The position numbers were made by a program, and so were the translations under genes. A stretch of DNA of 64,000 nt. Origin: a phage. The stretch is from sequence record PZ386951.1; one strand, written 5' to 3'. Every line of letters starts with the position of its first letter. The stretch's first letter is position 1. Below are positions 30,890-43,567 of the stretch, piece after piece. The notes under the pieces are model-generated. The model ran no database searches, was not told the origin of the DNA, and was given only the letters and a program-made list of their open reading frames with translations.

Positions 30890-30898
30890 ATCACCTTC

Positions 30899-31105
30899 TT
30901 AAAGCGTATTCACATAAGCTATTAATTCATTTTCTTTCTTATCAAACCGATCAGCAAATTCTTCCTGCTGTTCGGGAGATAGCGGGCCGTATTCATCATA
31001 AAAGGTGTTTGCTTCTGTATGCTCATCTAGAAGTTCATGGATAAGCTCAAACAATTTATCTTTTTGTTCTTTACTCAGACTCATAACCATGTCACCTTTA
31101 AGCAA
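30899..31105 (-). CDS. hypothetical acidic protein
   Basis: 68-aa ORF. Confidence 0.4.
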   Translation of the reverse strand: MLKGDMVMSLSKEQKDKLFELIHELLDEHTEANTFYDEYGPLSPEQQEEFADRFDKKENELIAYVNTL

Positions 31106-31293
31106 TATTCTTCTACATGTTGTTTACGACCTTTCTTATCAATAAAGGTATATTCAACGAATGTTCCAATGTAGTCTTTATCTACATCATGTGGACTATT
31201 AATTGGACATTTAGTACGGCAAATGCGTTCCCATTGACGAATAATTACTGCTTTGTTTTTAGGATCAAACGGATGTGGGTAATGTACTTTCAT
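31081..31293 (-). CDS. hypothetical protein
   Basis: 70-aa ORF. Confidence 0.4.
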   Translation of the reverse strand: MKVHYPHPFDPKNKAVIIRQWERICRTKCPINSPHDVDKDYIGTFVEYTFIDKKGRKQHVEEYCLKVTWL

Positions 31294-31744
31294 AATCCAC
31301 CACTATTAAATCAATATCAGGAGTAAACATGTCGATTAATTTAGAAACCTTATCCCAATCACCGCCAGCAATACCACAACCTATGCGTGGAATGTAAATT
31401 ACCGGTTTAAACAAAAGGGTTTCTGCCTGTAGATTTAATTCTATCATGCAGTTTACTAAAGCACCATAATCAAGATTAGGACCTGGTTCGTATTGCGTAT
31501 ACAAGTTATAACATATGCCAAAACCATTAGGTTTATGTTTAAAAACAATAGACATATCGCCTAATTTATCACGAGAACCGTACTCAGTAGTGGTTTTATC
31601 TATTTCTAAAATTTTGGGATAGGCTCTTGCTAATTGACCCGCTACACCTGAACCCATAGTATGAAAACAATTGCACCCGTGCGCAATAATATTACCTTCA
31701 AGAAAGAGGGCGACAATATCGCCCTTGATATATTTTACAATCAT
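31265..31744 (-). CDS. putative macro-domain (ADP-ribose binding/processing) protein
   Basis: 159 aa; N-terminal IKGDIVALFLEGNIIAHGCNCFHTMGSGVAGQLA resembles macro-domain glycine-rich nucleotide-binding region. Confidence 0.5.
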   Translation of the reverse strand: MIVKYIKGDIVALFLEGNIIAHGCNCFHTMGSGVAGQLARAYPKILEIDKTTTEYGSRDKLGDMSIVFKHKPNGFGICYNLYTQYEPGPNLDYGALVNCMIELNLQAETLLFKPVIYIPRIGCGIAGGDWDKVSKLIDMFTPDIDLIVVDYESTLPTSV

Positions 31745-32088
31745 CTAGTACTCAATCCTCGATTATAAGAATCTACCAAACGGTCAACCATTGAATGACA
31801 AGCGGCTTTATCTTTCTCCTCCGCAACTGAACATTCTAAAGTATTCCACTTTTTAGCATATCGTTTTAATAATGTATCGTTTTTGTATCTGCTTGATTTA
31901 TCTCTTTCTCCGTCTTTATATGCATATATTAATTTCTGTGCAAATTCAGCTTGGCATGCTTTATTTTTCCCACAATAATCTGCCGCAGTGCGGTTTACAT
32001 ATTCTCTAATTTCAGTATATGATGTATCTGCTGACGCAGAAGCAGAAAATGAAATTAATCCTATACATAAAACCAAAATTTTAGTCAT
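31741..32088 (-). CDS. secreted cysteine-containing protein
   Basis: 115 aa; signal peptide MTKILVLCIGLISFSASASA; four Cys. Confidence 0.45.
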   Translation of the reverse strand: MTKILVLCIGLISFSASASADTSYTEIREYVNRTAADYCGKNKACQAEFAQKLIYAYKDGERDKSSRYKNDTLLKRYAKKWNTLECSVAEEKDKAACHSMVDRLVDSYNRGLSTR

Positions 32089-32626
32089 TTACTATTTCCA
32101 AAAGTTTATTATTTTTAAGGTAATTAGCCTTTTCTAGGACTTCAGAAGCATATTTAGAACCAGCTTTAACATTCCATCCCGAATTATAAGAGGATATTGC
32201 TTTTCTTATATCGCCCTTATGTATATTTAACCAATAAGAAAGTTCAATGTACGCCCAGGAAGCTGAATTGGATCGTTTATTCAACATTCTTTTTATTTCA
32301 GCATCGGTCATATTATAACCAAGTTCCTTAACTCTTGCTCGCATAGTAGGCAAATAATTTTGGAACATTCCATAAGCGTGATGCTTTGGTTTAGATTTTA
32401 AATTAACTCCGCCAGAGCTTTCTTGCCATAAAATAGCAGCCATTATATGACCTAATCCGCTCTTGTGGATATTTTTATGTGTTTTATATTTTCCATCCTT
32501 AGAAAACTGTTCCCCGAATTGATACGCGTAACGCATGTTATCGAGTTGGACATTACTGAAAGTATGCTCGGAGCTATGTGCCATCATTGAAATGGCCAAT
32601 AGACCAGCGAGTAGTGCTTTTCTCAT
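32081..32626 (-). CDS. putative periplasmic lytic transglycosylase (SLT domain)
   Basis: 181 aa; signal peptide; family-1 motifs WQESSG, YGMFQ, YNSGWN. Confidence 0.6.
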   Translation of the reverse strand: MRKALLAGLLAISMMAHSSEHTFSNVQLDNMRYAYQFGEQFSKDGKYKTHKNIHKSGLGHIMAAILWQESSGGVNLKSKPKHHAYGMFQNYLPTMRARVKELGYNMTDAEIKRMLNKRSNSASWAYIELSYWLNIHKGDIRKAISSYNSGWNVKAGSKYASEVLEKANYLKNNKLLEIVND

Positions 32627-37274: not shown

Positions 37275-38243
<969 letters not shown>

Positions 38244-38262
<19 letters not shown>

Positions 38263-42279: not shown

Positions 42280-42355
42280 TGGTCGAGGCAGTAGGGATCG
42301 AACCTACGACCTAGGACTTAGAAGGTCCTTGCTCTTCCTTCTGAGCTATGCCTCG
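42280..42355 (-). tRNA. tRNA-Arg (anticodon UCU)
   Basis: Hand-folded cloverleaf: acceptor CGAGGCA/TGCCTCG, anticodon loop CTTCTAA, T-loop TTCGATC, encoded CCA. Confidence 0.8.
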
Positions 42356-42359
42356 GATT

Positions 42360-42434
42360 TGGCGGACGTGATAGGATTCGAACCTATAACCAATCGCTTA
42401 ACAGGCGATCGCTCTGCCATTGAGCTACACATCC
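42360..42434 (-). tRNA. tRNA-Asn (anticodon GUU)
   Basis: Hand-folded: anticodon stem ATCGC/GCGAT, loop CTGTTAA, T-loop TTCGAAT, encoded CCA. Confidence 0.7.
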
Positions 42435-42438
42435 AAAT

Positions 42439-42525
42439 TGGTGGGGAGTGATGGAGTCGAACCACCCGAGTCGCAATGACAATGGATTTACAGTCCACAC
42501 CGCTACCTCTACGGGATAACTCCCC
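42439..42525 (-). tRNA. tRNA-Tyr (anticodon GUA), class II with long variable arm
   Basis: Hand-folded: acceptor GGGGAGT/ACTCCCC, anticodon loop CTGTAAA, long variable arm, T-loop TTCGACT, encoded CCA. Confidence 0.65.
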
Positions 42526-42537
42526 TAATTCATAATT

Positions 42538-42612
42538 TGGTGGCCCTGGGTGGAATTGAACCACCATCTGGCGATTATGAGTCGCTTGCTTGAACCTTCC
42601 AGCTACAGGGCC
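42538..42612 (-). tRNA. tRNA with CAU anticodon (Ile2 lysidine-type, as in T4, or Met)
   Basis: Hand-folded: acceptor GGCCCTG/CAGGGCC, anticodon loop CTCATAA, T-loop TTCAATT, encoded CCA. Confidence 0.7.
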
Positions 42613-42621
42613 AAATTTTTC

Positions 42622-43107
42622 TTATTTTATGTAATATTTATTTAAAAACTTTCTAGCTTGAGTGTGGCTAACATTTATAGCATTTGCATAATTTTTAATA
42701 AAACCTCGTTCATCCATATTAAAATTTTCTAATATTTTTAATCGTCTAGTTATCTCATCTTGACTTAAAGTACTTGCATTATTTTTAGAAATTTTTTCTA
42801 AGGACTGAACTGAGTGTTTTCGACCACTAAAATTAAAATTTTTAGATTTTGGAGGAAATCTATCATTTAGTCTGGCATCTTTTGTATTTTGATTATTGGT
42901 TGCGCAATATATGTTATTTAATGAATACGGTCCTTTATCACCAAAACGACACATGCAGTATTCATGACCCTTTCTTCCACGCTTATCATAATTTCCCGTT
43001 GATTTCCACCAATGCAACCACTCATCAAAAGTTAAATTCCATTCAATGTTTCTACGTATAGCAGAATTCCGCTGAGAAATATATTTTGCATAATCTTCTT
43101 TCATCAC
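42622..43107 (-). CDS. putative HNH-like homing endonuclease embedded in the tRNA cluster
   Basis: 161 aa; HEYCMCRFGDKGPYSLNNIYCATNNQN resembles a degenerate HNH/His-Me finger; C-terminal helix-turn-helix-like segment; sits between the two tRNA subclusters. Confidence 0.45.
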   Translation of the reverse strand: MMKEDYAKYISQRNSAIRRNIEWNLTFDEWLHWWKSTGNYDKRGRKGHEYCMCRFGDKGPYSLNNIYCATNNQNTKDARLNDRFPPKSKNFNFSGRKHSVQSLEKISKNNASTLSQDEITRRLKILENFNMDERGFIKNYANAINVSHTQARKFLNKYYIK

Positions 43108-43151
43108 AAATTTCTCTACTTATTACATACACTAAGCTAAATCAGCAAAAC

Positions 43152-43241
43152 TGGCGGAGGCGATAGGATTTGAACCTATGAGTCGCCGGAGCGACTGCCG
43201 GTTTTCAAGACCGGTGCATTAAACCACTCTGCCACGCCTCC
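43152..43241 (-). tRNA. tRNA-Ser (anticodon UGA), class II
   Basis: Hand-folded: acceptor GGAGGCG/CGCCTCC, anticodon loop CTTGAAA, long variable arm, T-loop TTCAAAT, encoded CCA. Confidence 0.8.
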
Positions 43242-43243
43242 AG

Positions 43244-43317
43244 TCTCCACGGCAGGATTTGAACCTGCGACATTCTGCTCCCAAAGCAGACGCTCTACCA
43301 AACTGAGCTACACGGAG
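43244..43317 (-). tRNA. tRNA-Pro (anticodon UGG), CCA not encoded
   Basis: Hand-folded: anticodon stem TCTGC/GCAGA, loop TTTGGGA, T-loop TTCAAAT; 3' end abuts tRNA-Ser without CCA. Confidence 0.7.
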
Positions 43318-43327
43318 TAAATTAAAT

Positions 43328-43401
<74 letters not shown>

Positions 43402-43406
43402 AAATT

Positions 43407-43493
43407 TGGTGCGAGAAGTGGGACTCGAACCCACAAGGAAATCATTCCGCAGCATTTTAAGTGCTGTGCCTTTACCAATTTGACCATTCTCGC
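43407..43493 (-). tRNA. tRNA-Leu (anticodon UAA), class II
   Basis: Hand-folded: acceptor GCGAGAA/TTCTCGC, anticodon loop CTTAAAA, long variable arm, T-loop TTCGAGT, encoded CCA. Confidence 0.8.
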
Positions 43494-43494
43494 G

Positions 43495-43567
43495 CTGGGA
43501 ATAAAGGACTCGAACCTTTGCATCTAGCAGTCAAAGTGCTATGCCTTACCAACTTGGCTAATTCCCA
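43495..43567 (-). tRNA. tRNA-Gln (anticodon UUG), CCA not encoded; 1 nt from tRNA-Leu
   Basis: Hand-folded: acceptor TGGGAAT/ATTCCCA, anticodon loop CTTTGAC, T-loop TTCGAGT. Confidence 0.75.

What the first reader, a model, noticed from the sequence alone, without database searches (positions are those of the whole stretch)
31265..31744. Candidate macro-domain protein among early genes
The N-terminus (IKGDIVALFLEGNIIAHGCNCFHTMGSGVAGQLA) resembles the nucleotide-binding core of macro domains, which bind or hydrolyse ADP-ribose adducts. T4-type phages ADP-ribosylate host proteins, and several bacterial defences use ADP-ribosylation, so a phage macro domain could tune or reverse such marks.
Basis: inference. 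Interest (0 to 1): 0.5.

Follow-up and report, generated by a model that had tools for sequence, protein, structure and literature searches.

The report
Phage T4 tk.4/AdfM macrodomain gene

Summary
The ORF at 31265..31744 (minus strand, 159 aa) is real and is a macrodomain. It passes the Pfam Macro threshold (33.1 bits against a cut-off of 22). The AlphaFold2 model has pLDDT 94, and its best structural matches are TARG1, Poa1p, BT1257 and DarG. The window is a near-twin of phage T4, and the gene sits in the tk.4 slot between vs and tk.3. The protein aligns end to end with T4 Tk.4 at 58% identity.

T4 tk.4 has carried an A1pp/macro annotation since 2006. A November 2025 preprint (HIDEN-SEQ) found it to be the only T4 gene needed to grow on DarTG2 hosts and named it AdfM. 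The most likely function is therefore removal of ADP-ribose from thymidine in phage single-stranded DNA.

Two refinements come from this work:
- **Active site.** The family has an invariant Gln84 where DarG and TARG1 have their catalytic lysine. This matches SCO6735, a lysine-free enzyme that cleaves thymidine-ADP-ribose and whose Q85A mutant is inactive.
- **Mosaic allele.** The body of the gene is a diverged patch (47-70% nucleotide identity) in a background that is otherwise 97-100% identical to T4.

The gene is already known, and interest is low to moderate.

The parts
31265..31744 (-). tk.4 / adfM orthologue: a 159-aa single-domain macrodomain protein.
   Evidence: ORF listed. Pfam Macro match. 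58% identity and 74% positives to T4 Tk.4 over 155 aa without gaps, E=4e-70. Same neighbours as T4, vs upstream and tk.3 downstream. AF2 pLDDT 94.
31337..31681 (-). Region matched by Pfam Macro (residues 22-136).
   Evidence: profile positions 2-117 of 118.
31646..31672 (-). N25-x6-G31-S-G33: the distal-ribose Asn and phosphate-binding loop 1.
   Evidence: N25 and G33 are invariant and G31 is present in 92 of 102 homologues. N25 aligns with N23 of PhiKZ AdfM, and the N23A mutant of that enzyme has reduced DNA de-ADP-ribosylation (PMC13309987).
31493..31495 (-). Codon CAA for Gln84, at the position of the catalytic Lys of DarG (K80) and TARG1 (K84).
   Evidence: Codon read directly. Invariant in 102 of 102 homologues. 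hhalign pairs NLYTQ with NFPTK of Taq DarG and with LITK84 of TARG1. hmmsearch pairs it with NMIGQ of BT1257. It lies at the end of strand 74-84 in the model. In SCO6735 the equivalent Gln85 is essential (PMC9411070).
31355..31390 (-). P119-RIGCGIAGGD-W130: phosphate-binding loop 2, of the SCO6735/BT1257 type, with Ala126 where TARG1 has Asp125.
   Evidence: P119 and W130 are invariant; G122, G124, A126, G127 and G128 are at least 90% conserved. It aligns to PRIGCGLAGGTW of SCO6735 and PRIGCGLAGGKW of BT1257, and to PRIGCGLDRLQW of TARG1.
31741..31744 (-). ATGA overlap: the tk.4 start codon (31744-31742) overlaps the vs stop codon (31743-31741).
   Evidence: Read directly. The 5' region is identical to T4. 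Translational coupling is an inference.
31265..31293 (-). The last 29 nt of tk.4 overlap the start of tk.3 (31081..31293). In T4 this overlap is only 4 nt.
31265..31620 (.). Diverged mosaic patch covering codons about 42-159 of tk.4. Nucleotide identity to T4 is 47-70% here, against 97-100% in the flanks.
   Evidence: Sliding-window identity from a global alignment. Flanking proteins rI.-1, rI, rI.1, vs and vs.1 are 100% identical to T4, tk is 99.5% and regB 99.3%.

Best explanation
The ORF is the tk.4 (adfM) gene of a T4-type phage. It encodes a stand-alone macrodomain of the TARG1/DarG/SCO6735 ('ALC1-like') class that acts as an orphan antitoxin. When the host DarT2 toxin attaches ADP-ribose to thymidine in single-stranded phage DNA, the enzyme binds the ADP-ribose in its cleft. 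The cleft is formed by N25, the G31-S-G33 loop and the P119...W130 loop. The enzyme hydrolyses the N-glycosidic bond to the base, which restores replicable DNA and releases free ADP-ribose. It lacks the catalytic lysine of DarG and TARG1 and has an invariant Gln84 in its place. Catalysis is therefore most likely of the SCO6735 type: Gln positions the distal ribose and an activated water attacks, rather than a lysine forming a covalent intermediate. What is shown here: the fold, the orthology, the synteny and the conserved active-site residues. What is shown in the literature for relatives: T4 Tk.4 is required against DarTG2, SCO6735 cleaves thymidine-ADP-ribose and needs Gln85, and PhiKZ AdfM removes DarT2 marks in vitro. 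What is inferred: that this 58%-identical allele has the same substrate and the same anti-DarTG2 effect.
For: Macro fold and family assignment. Orthology to T4 Tk.4: 58% identity over the full length, with identical gene order tk-tk.3-tk.4-vs-vs.1-regB. T4 genetics: tk.4 was the only hit against DarTG2 and its knockout is sensitive (bioRxiv 10.1101/2025.11.20.689424). The best matches in defence-oriented libraries are DarG, covering its macro part only: NCBIfam NF048014 at E=1.4e-6 and PADLOC DarG at 4.3e-7. All 12 family-invariant residues (H22 G23 N25 C26 G33 A35 D49 N80 Y82 Q84 P119 W130) are present in both the window and the T4 alleles. Q84 aligns to DarG K80 and TARG1 K84. SCO6735 has Gln85 at that position, cleaves dT-ADPr on DNA, loses all activity in the Q85A mutant, and rescues DarT toxicity (PMC9411070). 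Loop 2 is nearly identical to that of SCO6735 and BT1257. The acidic pI of 5.07 is not an obstacle, because the biochemically active PhiKZ AdfM has pI 5.05 (PMC13309987).
Against: No biochemistry exists for any Tk.4-type protein; the preprint itself only says enzymatic removal 'seems likely'. This allele is 42% different from the T4 protein that was tested. The loop after Gln84 (YEPGPNLDY) has TARG1 length and contains no lysines. In SCO6735 the longer loop carries Lys89 and Lys93, which help bind DNA. A small 7-sequence MAFFT alignment put Q84 two columns away from the Lys, whereas the three profile-based alignments agree with each other. I could not inspect model coordinates to confirm that Q84 points into the cleft.
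Confidence: 0.75

Rival explanations
1. The protein neutralises DarT2 stoichiometrically, by binding the toxin or occupying its DNA site, and hydrolysis is dispensable.
For: Catalytically dead SCO6735 Q85A still inhibits DarT efficiently in vitro (PMC9411070). Other phage anti-DarT factors, AdfA and AdfB, act by direct binding (PMC11825919; PMC11481870). The protein is acidic, with pI 5.07.
Against: The full ADP-ribose-binding and catalytic constellation (H22, N25, G33, Q84, P119, W130) is invariant across 102 homologues down to about 40% identity. That pattern is what an enzyme would show. The protein has no counterpart of the C-terminal DarT-binding domain of DarG; its matches cover only positions 2-142 of 338.
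Confidence: 0.1
2. It is a Poa1p-like small-molecule enzyme, an ADP-ribose-1''-phosphate phosphatase or O-acetyl-ADP-ribose deacetylase. It would process soluble ADP-ribose derivatives, such as by-products of RNA repair, sirtuin products or defence signals. This is the reading behind the historical 'A1pp phosphatase' annotation.
For: Yeast Poa1p is a strong sequence and fold match: E=1.8e-9, profile E=2.4e-14, Foldseek E=3.4e-9. H22 aligns with Poa1p His23, a residue chosen for mutagenesis in PDB entry 6lfs. GenBank and PHROG label the family 'phosphatase'. A comparative survey argued that phage Macro and NADAR domains may prefer soluble ADPr derivatives (PMC9503650).
Against: The only phenotype known for the orthologue is specific to DarTG2, a DNA-modifying system. 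I know of no source of ADP-ribose-1''-phosphate in T4 infection (my own knowledge). In vitro phosphatase activity is common among macrodomains and would not exclude the DNA role.
Confidence: 0.08
3. It erases ADP-ribose from RNA or proteins: uracil-linked ADPr on RNA, marks left by other defence ADP-ribosyltransferases, or the phage's own Alt/ModA/ModB marks. The DarTG2 phenotype would be one facet of a broader eraser.
For: TARG1, DarG and especially SCO6735 also hydrolyse uracil-ADPr on single-stranded RNA (PMC13036486). SCO6735 and TARG1 also act on protein ADPr.
Against: The adenine modification by CmdT is described as irreversible so far. No evidence links this macrodomain class to arginine-ADPr. 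tk.4 is dispensable on ordinary hosts and was scored only with DarTG2.
Confidence: 0.07

Closest known systems
Phage T4 Tk.4 = AdfM (anti-DarT factor Macrodomain; NP_049723; bioRxiv 10.1101/2025.11.20.689424)
   Same: It is the orthologue. It occupies the same slot between vs and tk.3 and has the same ATGA coupling to vs. The first 47 residues are 43/47 identical. All family-invariant residues are shared. Lengths are 155 and 159 aa.
   Different: Overall identity is only 58%. The gene body is a recombinant patch in an otherwise T4-identical background. Loop 2 reads IGCGIAGGDW here against IGAGIGKGNW in T4. This allele is about 94% identical to the JS98 'tk.4'.
Streptomyces coelicolor SCO6735 (PDB 5e3b) and Bacteroides BT1257 (2fg1/2afc)
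   Same: Gln replaces the catalytic Lys, the TARG1 Asp125 equivalent is absent, and the PRIGCG(L/I)AGGxW loop is nearly identical. Both are orphan genes with no adjacent darT. BT1257 is the best PDB sequence match, with profile E=3.4e-19.
   Different: The loop after the Gln is shorter (six residues shorter than in BT1257; equal in length to TARG1) and lacks the DNA-positioning lysines of SCO6735. The window protein is acidic rather than electropositive. It is encoded by a phage.
DarG antitoxin macrodomain (T. aquaticus 5m31, M. tuberculosis 5m3i) and PhiKZ gp104 'AdfM' (PMC13309987)
   Same: Same class of fold (Foldseek probability 1.0, TM about 0.72-0.76). hhalign probability is 97.5% to Taq DarG and 95.9% to PhiKZ gp104. 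The conserved Asn is shared. The biological target, DarT2, is the same for the T4 orthologue.
   Different: DarG and PhiKZ AdfM carry the FPTK catalytic lysine; this family has Q84. PhiKZ AdfM matches DarG at E=9.4e-25, whereas the window protein matches it only at 1.4e-5. The two proteins called 'AdfM' therefore belong to different subfamilies. The window protein has no C-terminal DarT-binding domain and no neighbouring darT.
Human TARG1 / OARD1 (4j5r)
   Same: It is the top structural match (E=3.7e-10, TM 0.72/0.81), with profile E=1.4e-16. The length of the loop after strand 5 is the same, and the His (H22 here, H32 in TARG1) is shared. TARG1 also removes thymidine-ADPr.
   Different: The catalytic dyad Lys84/Asp125 is replaced by Gln84/Ala126.
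Yeast Poa1p (6lfq-6lfu), ADP-ribose-1''-phosphate phosphatase
   Same: The N-terminal half is strongly similar, including HxCNC...GxG, and the fold matches. It is the source of the 'phosphatase' label.
   Different: Poa1p has a long insertion in the middle of the domain (the alignment breaks between residues 79 and 116). Its role is in eukaryotic tRNA-splicing by-product metabolism.
T4 AdfN (gene 30.3), NADAR orphan antitoxin against DarTG1 (PMC11825919)
   Same: The strategy is the same: a lytic T-even phage carries a stand-alone homologue of the antitoxin's hydrolase domain and removes ADP-ribose from its own DNA.
   Different: The fold is unrelated (NADAR), the enzyme is specific for guanosine, and the gene lies outside this window.

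Membership tests
Macro domain superfamily (Pfam PF01661) | Profile match above the curated threshold. | tested here: met
   33.1 bits against a cut-off of 22, E=6.2e-8, covering 116 of 118 profile positions.
Macro domain superfamily (Pfam PF01661) | Three-layer alpha/beta/alpha fold with a central mixed sheet. | tested here: met
   AF2 model with pLDDT 94 and alternating strands and helices. 187 PDB matches at E<=0.001, headed by macrodomains.
Macro domain superfamily (Pfam PF01661) | Conserved Asn plus GxG loop, and a second Gly-rich phosphate loop lining the ADP-ribose cleft. | tested here: met
   N25, G31-S-G33 and G122-C-G124...G127-G128 are invariant or at least 90% conserved.
Macro domain superfamily (Pfam PF01661) | Binds ADP-ribose. 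| not testable with these tools
   Needs ITC or DSF with the purified protein.
T4 Tk.4 / AdfM orthologous group | Full-length homology to T4 Tk.4. | tested here: met
   58% identity over 155 aa with no gaps, E=4e-70.
T4 Tk.4 / AdfM orthologous group | Conserved genomic position between vs and tk.3 in a T-even genome. | tested here: met
   flanking proteins are 96-100% identical to T4.
T4 Tk.4 / AdfM orthologous group | Required for growth on DarTG2-expressing hosts. | not testable with these tools
   Shown only for T4 itself.
DarG antitoxin (NCBIfam NF048014 / PADLOC DarG) | Score above the equivalog cut-off and two-domain architecture (macro plus C-terminal DarT-binding domain). | tested here: not met
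   27.8 bits against a cut-off of 250. Only profile positions 2-142 of 338 are matched. The protein is 159 aa.
DarG antitoxin (NCBIfam NF048014 / PADLOC DarG) | Catalytic lysine (Taq K80) in the FPTK motif. | tested here: not met
   Q84 aligns to that position and is invariant in the family.
DarG antitoxin (NCBIfam NF048014 / PADLOC DarG) | Encoded next to darT. | tested here: not met
   The neighbours are vs and tk.3. A bacterial homologue is also an orphan.
SCO6735/BT1257-type lysine-free ALC1-like macrodomains | Gln at the position of the catalytic Lys, and no Asp125 equivalent. | tested here: met
   Q84 and A126. The equivalence to SCO6735 Gln85 is by transitivity through TARG1, DarG and BT1257. 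A direct residue-level alignment to SCO6735 was obtained only for loop 2.
SCO6735/BT1257-type lysine-free ALC1-like macrodomains | Extended mobile loop (five residues longer than in TARG1/DarG) carrying DNA-binding lysines. | tested here: not met
   The loop aligns without gaps to TARG1 and is six residues shorter than in BT1257. The sequence YEPGPNLDY contains no Lys.
SCO6735/BT1257-type lysine-free ALC1-like macrodomains | Hydrolyses thymidine-linked ADP-ribose on single-stranded DNA. | not testable with these tools
   Needs a gel-shift or dot-blot assay on DarT2-modified oligonucleotides.
Poa1p-like ADP-ribose-1''-phosphate phosphatases | Sequence and fold similarity, including the His23 equivalent. 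| tested here: met
   E=1.8e-9, Foldseek E=3.4e-9, H22 invariant.
Poa1p-like ADP-ribose-1''-phosphate phosphatases | Appr-1''-p phosphatase activity as the physiological role. | not testable with these tools
   An enzyme assay is needed. No pathway context for it appears in the window.

The most novel reading that the evidence does not exclude
Tk.4-type phage macrodomains may be a third mechanistic branch of DNA de-ADP-ribosylases: a lysine-free, Gln84-based active site like SCO6735, on a short, non-basic TARG1-length loop. The replacement of just the tk.4 gene body in an otherwise T4-identical genome may mark tk.4 as an exchangeable counter-defence cassette, with alleles matched to different DarT2 variants or to other substrates such as uracil-ADPr on RNA.
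Probability: 0.25. Interest if true: 0.45.

Novelty: already known. Interest (0 to 1): 0.22.

Why it matters
DNA ADP-ribosylation by DarT toxins is a widespread anti-phage defence, and T-even phages stack several countermeasures (AdfA, AdfN, AdfM). Recognising this ORF as the AdfM orthologue predicts that this phage resists DarTG2. That is useful when choosing phages against hosts that carry DarTG. The invariant Gln in place of the catalytic Lys means the T4-type AdfM should not be assumed to work like DarG. It offers a small, well-behaved model for the lysine-free mechanism proposed for SCO6735. The sharply bounded allele swap gives natural variants for testing specificity.

Tried and rejected
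1. I tried twice to force a residue-level alignment of the Gln region to SCO6735 (5e3b) by querying PDB sequences with C-terminal fragments. Only loop 2 aligned, so the Q84-Gln85 equivalence rests on transitivity through TARG1, DarG and BT1257.
2. A 7-sequence MAFFT alignment offset Q84 from the Lys by a two-column gap. I judged this an alignment artefact because hhalign and hmmsearch agree and the model ends strand 5 at Q84.
3. I looked for a DarT neighbour next to a bacterial homologue (P0095, Pelagimonas). There was none; it is an orphan gene, so this was uninformative.
4. I considered the protein's acidity (pI 5.07) as an argument against a DNA substrate. I rejected it because the proven DNA-ADPr hydrolase PhiKZ AdfM has pI 5.05.
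5. The promoter and terminator consensus scan was not above chance for promoters (22 found against 23.1 expected), so I make no claim about the promoter or about timing.
6. The CmdTAC paper mentions macrodomains only in its reference list and says nothing about T4 tk.4.
7. The label 'putative thymidine kinase' for T2 tk.4 in a 2026 preprint appears to be a naming artefact and was disregarded.

Full report
**Observation.** The window has an ATG-started ORF of 159 aa at 31265..31744 on the minus strand. The start codon overlaps the stop codon of the upstream gene in an ATGA arrangement at 31741-31744. The last 29 nt overlap the start of the downstream ORF (31081..31293). The ORF is not a chance reading frame. 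It passes the Pfam Macro gathering threshold: PF01661, 33.1 bits against 22, E=6.2e-8, covering nearly the whole profile. It matches PHROG 335 at E=1.6e-71. tblastn finds homologues in 2,774 phage records.

**What the locus is.** The window is a T4-type (Tequatrovirus-like) genome. Megablast of the ORF finds 572 phage records, of which 219 are at least 95% identical. GenBank labels them variously 'macro domain protein', 'phosphatase', 'Poa1p-like family protein' or 'hypothetical protein'. In T4 itself (NC_000866) the gene order is rI.-1, rI, rI.1, tk, tk.1, tk.2, tk.3, tk.4, vs, vs.1, regB. The window shows the same order, and the finding occupies the tk.4 slot. The protein aligns with T4 Tk.4 from end to end without gaps, at 58% identity, 74% positives and E=4e-70. 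tk.4 orthologues were already matched to the A1pp (macro) domain in 2006 (PMC1524935).

**Fold.** I aligned 102 homologues from the large protein collection and predicted the structure with AlphaFold2. The model has mean pLDDT 94.0 and pTM 0.89, with the alternating strand/helix pattern of a macrodomain. Foldseek against the PDB returns only macrodomains at the top:
- human TARG1 (E=3.7e-10; TM 0.72 normalised to the query, 0.81 to the target);
- yeast Poa1p;
- Bacteroides BT1257;
- the DarG macrodomains of T. aquaticus and M. tuberculosis.

All have probability 1.0. A profile search of PDB sequences gives the same set: BT1257 3.4e-19, TARG1 1.4e-16, SCO6735 1.6e-15, Poa1p 2.4e-14, DarG 4.6e-12 and 1.7e-10. 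These proteins form the 'ALC1-like' or TARG1-like class of macrodomains as named in PMC9411070. In libraries aimed at bacterial annotation and defence, the best match is DarG. It covers only the macro part and scores far below the membership cut-off: NCBIfam NF048014 at 27.8 bits against 250, and PADLOC DarG at E=4.3e-7.

**Published function of the orthologue.** A bioRxiv preprint of November 2025 (10.1101/2025.11.20.689424) screened a T4 transposon library on E. coli expressing DarTG2. [quoted passage not shown] A clean knockout made T4 sensitive to DarTG2. The authors named the gene adfM (anti-DarT factor Macrodomain). They state that enzymatic removal of ADP-ribose from DNA 'seems likely', and no biochemistry was reported. 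This fills a gap noted earlier: T4 lacking both adfA and adfN stays resistant to DarTG2 (PMC11825919). Independently, a Cell Reports 2026 paper gave the same name, AdfM, to PhiKZ gp104. That macrodomain does remove DarT2-made ADP-ribose from DNA in vitro, and its N23A mutant is impaired (PMC13309987).

**Active site: the refinement from this work.** Twelve positions are invariant across the 102 homologues: H22, G23, N25, C26, G33, A35, D49, N80, Y82, Q84, P119 and W130. All twelve are present in T4 Tk.4 as well. N25 aligns with the N23 of PhiKZ AdfM. Gln84 occupies the position of the catalytic lysine of DarG (K80) and TARG1 (K84):
- hhalign pairs NLYTQ with NFPTK of Taq DarG (97.5% probability);
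- hhalign pairs it with LITK of TARG1 (98.5%);
- hmmsearch pairs it with NMIGQ of BT1257;
- the model ends strand 5 at residue 84.

Ala126 replaces the TARG1 Asp125. This is the situation described for Streptomyces coelicolor SCO6735. That enzyme lacks both TARG1 catalytic residues and has Gln85 at the lysine position. It nevertheless cleaves thymidine-linked ADP-ribose on DNA and protects against DarT. Its Q85A mutant is completely inactive, and a water-mediated mechanism was proposed for it (PMC9411070). The second phosphate loop of the window protein (PRIGCGIAGGDW) is almost the same as in SCO6735 (PRIGCGLAGGTW) and BT1257 (PRIGCGLAGGKW). By contrast, PhiKZ AdfM is a genuine DarG-type macrodomain with the FPTK lysine. 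It matches 5m3i at E=9.4e-25, whereas the window protein matches it at 1.4e-5. The two proteins named AdfM are therefore different subfamilies of one class. The Tk.4 family also differs from SCO6735. Its loop after the Gln has TARG1 length, six residues shorter than in BT1257, and it has no lysines, whereas SCO6735 uses Lys89 there for DNA binding. I worried that the acidic pI (5.07; family median 5.87) argued against a DNA substrate. PhiKZ AdfM, which does act on DNA, has pI 5.05.

**Mosaic allele.** Around the locus the window is almost identical to T4. rI.-1, rI, rI.1, vs and vs.1 are 100% identical at the protein level, tk is 99.5%, regB 99.3% and tk.3 95.7%. Tk.4 is 58%. A sliding-window comparison shows that nucleotide identity falls to 47-70% between about 31265 and 31620. 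It recovers to 78-90% over 31594-31743 (roughly the first 50 codons) and to 100% just upstream of the start codon. The same allele is 94% identical to the JS98 'tk.4' and at least 95% identical in 272 phage records. T4-type alleles fall in the band below 60% identity. So the gene body was exchanged by recombination, with one boundary inside the conserved N-terminal motif region. A second variable patch lies just downstream at 30890-31060. There the T4 genes tk.1 and tk.2 are replaced by a single 68-aa ORF.

**Most likely mechanism.** The gene encodes a stand-alone hydrolase that removes ADP-ribose from thymidine in single-stranded phage DNA after DarT2 is unleashed. That makes it an orphan antitoxin, like the NADAR protein AdfN against DarTG1. 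I put 0.75 on this. The rivals are:
- stoichiometric inhibition of DarT2, for which the SCO6735 Q85A result is a precedent;
- a Poa1p-like role on soluble ADP-ribose derivatives, the source of the old 'phosphatase' label;
- a broader eraser role on RNA (uracil-ADPr is cleaved by SCO6735, TARG1 and DarG) or on proteins.

The invariance of the whole catalytic constellation argues for an enzyme. The DarTG2-specific phenotype of the T4 knockout argues for DNA as the relevant substrate.

**Membership.** The protein is a member of the macrodomain superfamily and of the T4 Tk.4/AdfM orthologous group. It is not a DarG: the catalytic Lys, the C-terminal domain and a neighbouring darT are all absent. 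It shares the lysine-free active site of SCO6735 and BT1257 but not their extended basic loop.

**Verdict.** The gene is already known: identical and near-identical proteins are in GenBank, some annotated as macro-domain proteins, and the T4 orthologue now has a genetic function. What this work adds is the Gln-for-Lys point, the distinction between the two 'AdfM' types, and the sharply bounded allele swap. Interest is low to moderate.

Noticed in passing
window 30890-31060 (ORF 30899..31105, minus strand): This is a second variable patch next to tk.4. The T4 genes tk.1 and tk.2 are replaced by a single 68-aa ORF (Pfam DUF7438, 54% identical to T4 Tk.2), while tk and tk.3 on either side are 99.5% and 95.7% identical to T4. 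The closest DNA relative, phage SholemSchwarzbard, has three small ORFs here.
   Followed up: partly
window 31707-31725: A perfect 7-bp stem with a 5-nt loop (AGGGCGA-TATTG-TCGCCCT) lies inside codons 7-13 of tk.4. The terminator scan picked it up on both strands. It is identical in T4. It could be an mRNA structure near the start codon or merely a coding coincidence.
   Followed up: partly
window 37807-38262 (minus strand): A NUDIX hydrolase ORF (PF00293, E=2.9e-13) sits next to the lysozyme gene e (37275..37769), which is the T4 nudE/e.1 position. From my own memory, T4 NudE.1 hydrolyses ADP-ribose among other substrates. It could therefore dispose of the ADP-ribose released by the macrodomain. 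I did not test this.
   Followed up: no
window 42280-43567 (minus strand): A cluster of nine tRNA genes: Arg(tct), Asn, Tyr and Met(cat), then a 540-bp gap, then Ser, Pro, Gly, Leu and Gln. The set and spacing differ from the closest DNA relative, which has ten tRNAs with a homing endonuclease in between. The gap at 42613-43151 was not examined.
   Followed up: no
window 31741-32088 (vs) and 32081-32626 (vs.1): The upstream genes are 100% identical to T4 vs and vs.1. vs.1 carries an SLT lytic transglycosylase domain. The HIDEN-SEQ preprint reports vs as the most depleted T4 gene in minimal medium. The tk.4 start codon is coupled to the vs stop codon by an ATGA overlap.
   Followed up: no
literature; no window coordinates: Two independent papers use the name AdfM for macrodomains of different subfamilies. 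T4 Tk.4 is Gln-type (bioRxiv 10.1101/2025.11.20.689424). PhiKZ gp104 is DarG-type with the FPTK lysine (PMC13309987). A 2026 preprint labels T2 tk.4 a 'putative thymidine kinase', which appears to be a naming artefact.
   Followed up: yes
L003 6001-6459 (Pelagimonas phthalicica chromosome): A bacterial homologue of the Tk.4 family (P0095, about 40% identity) is a stand-alone macro gene among housekeeping genes. It has no ADP-ribosyltransferase next to it, in the manner of SCO6735.
   Followed up: partly
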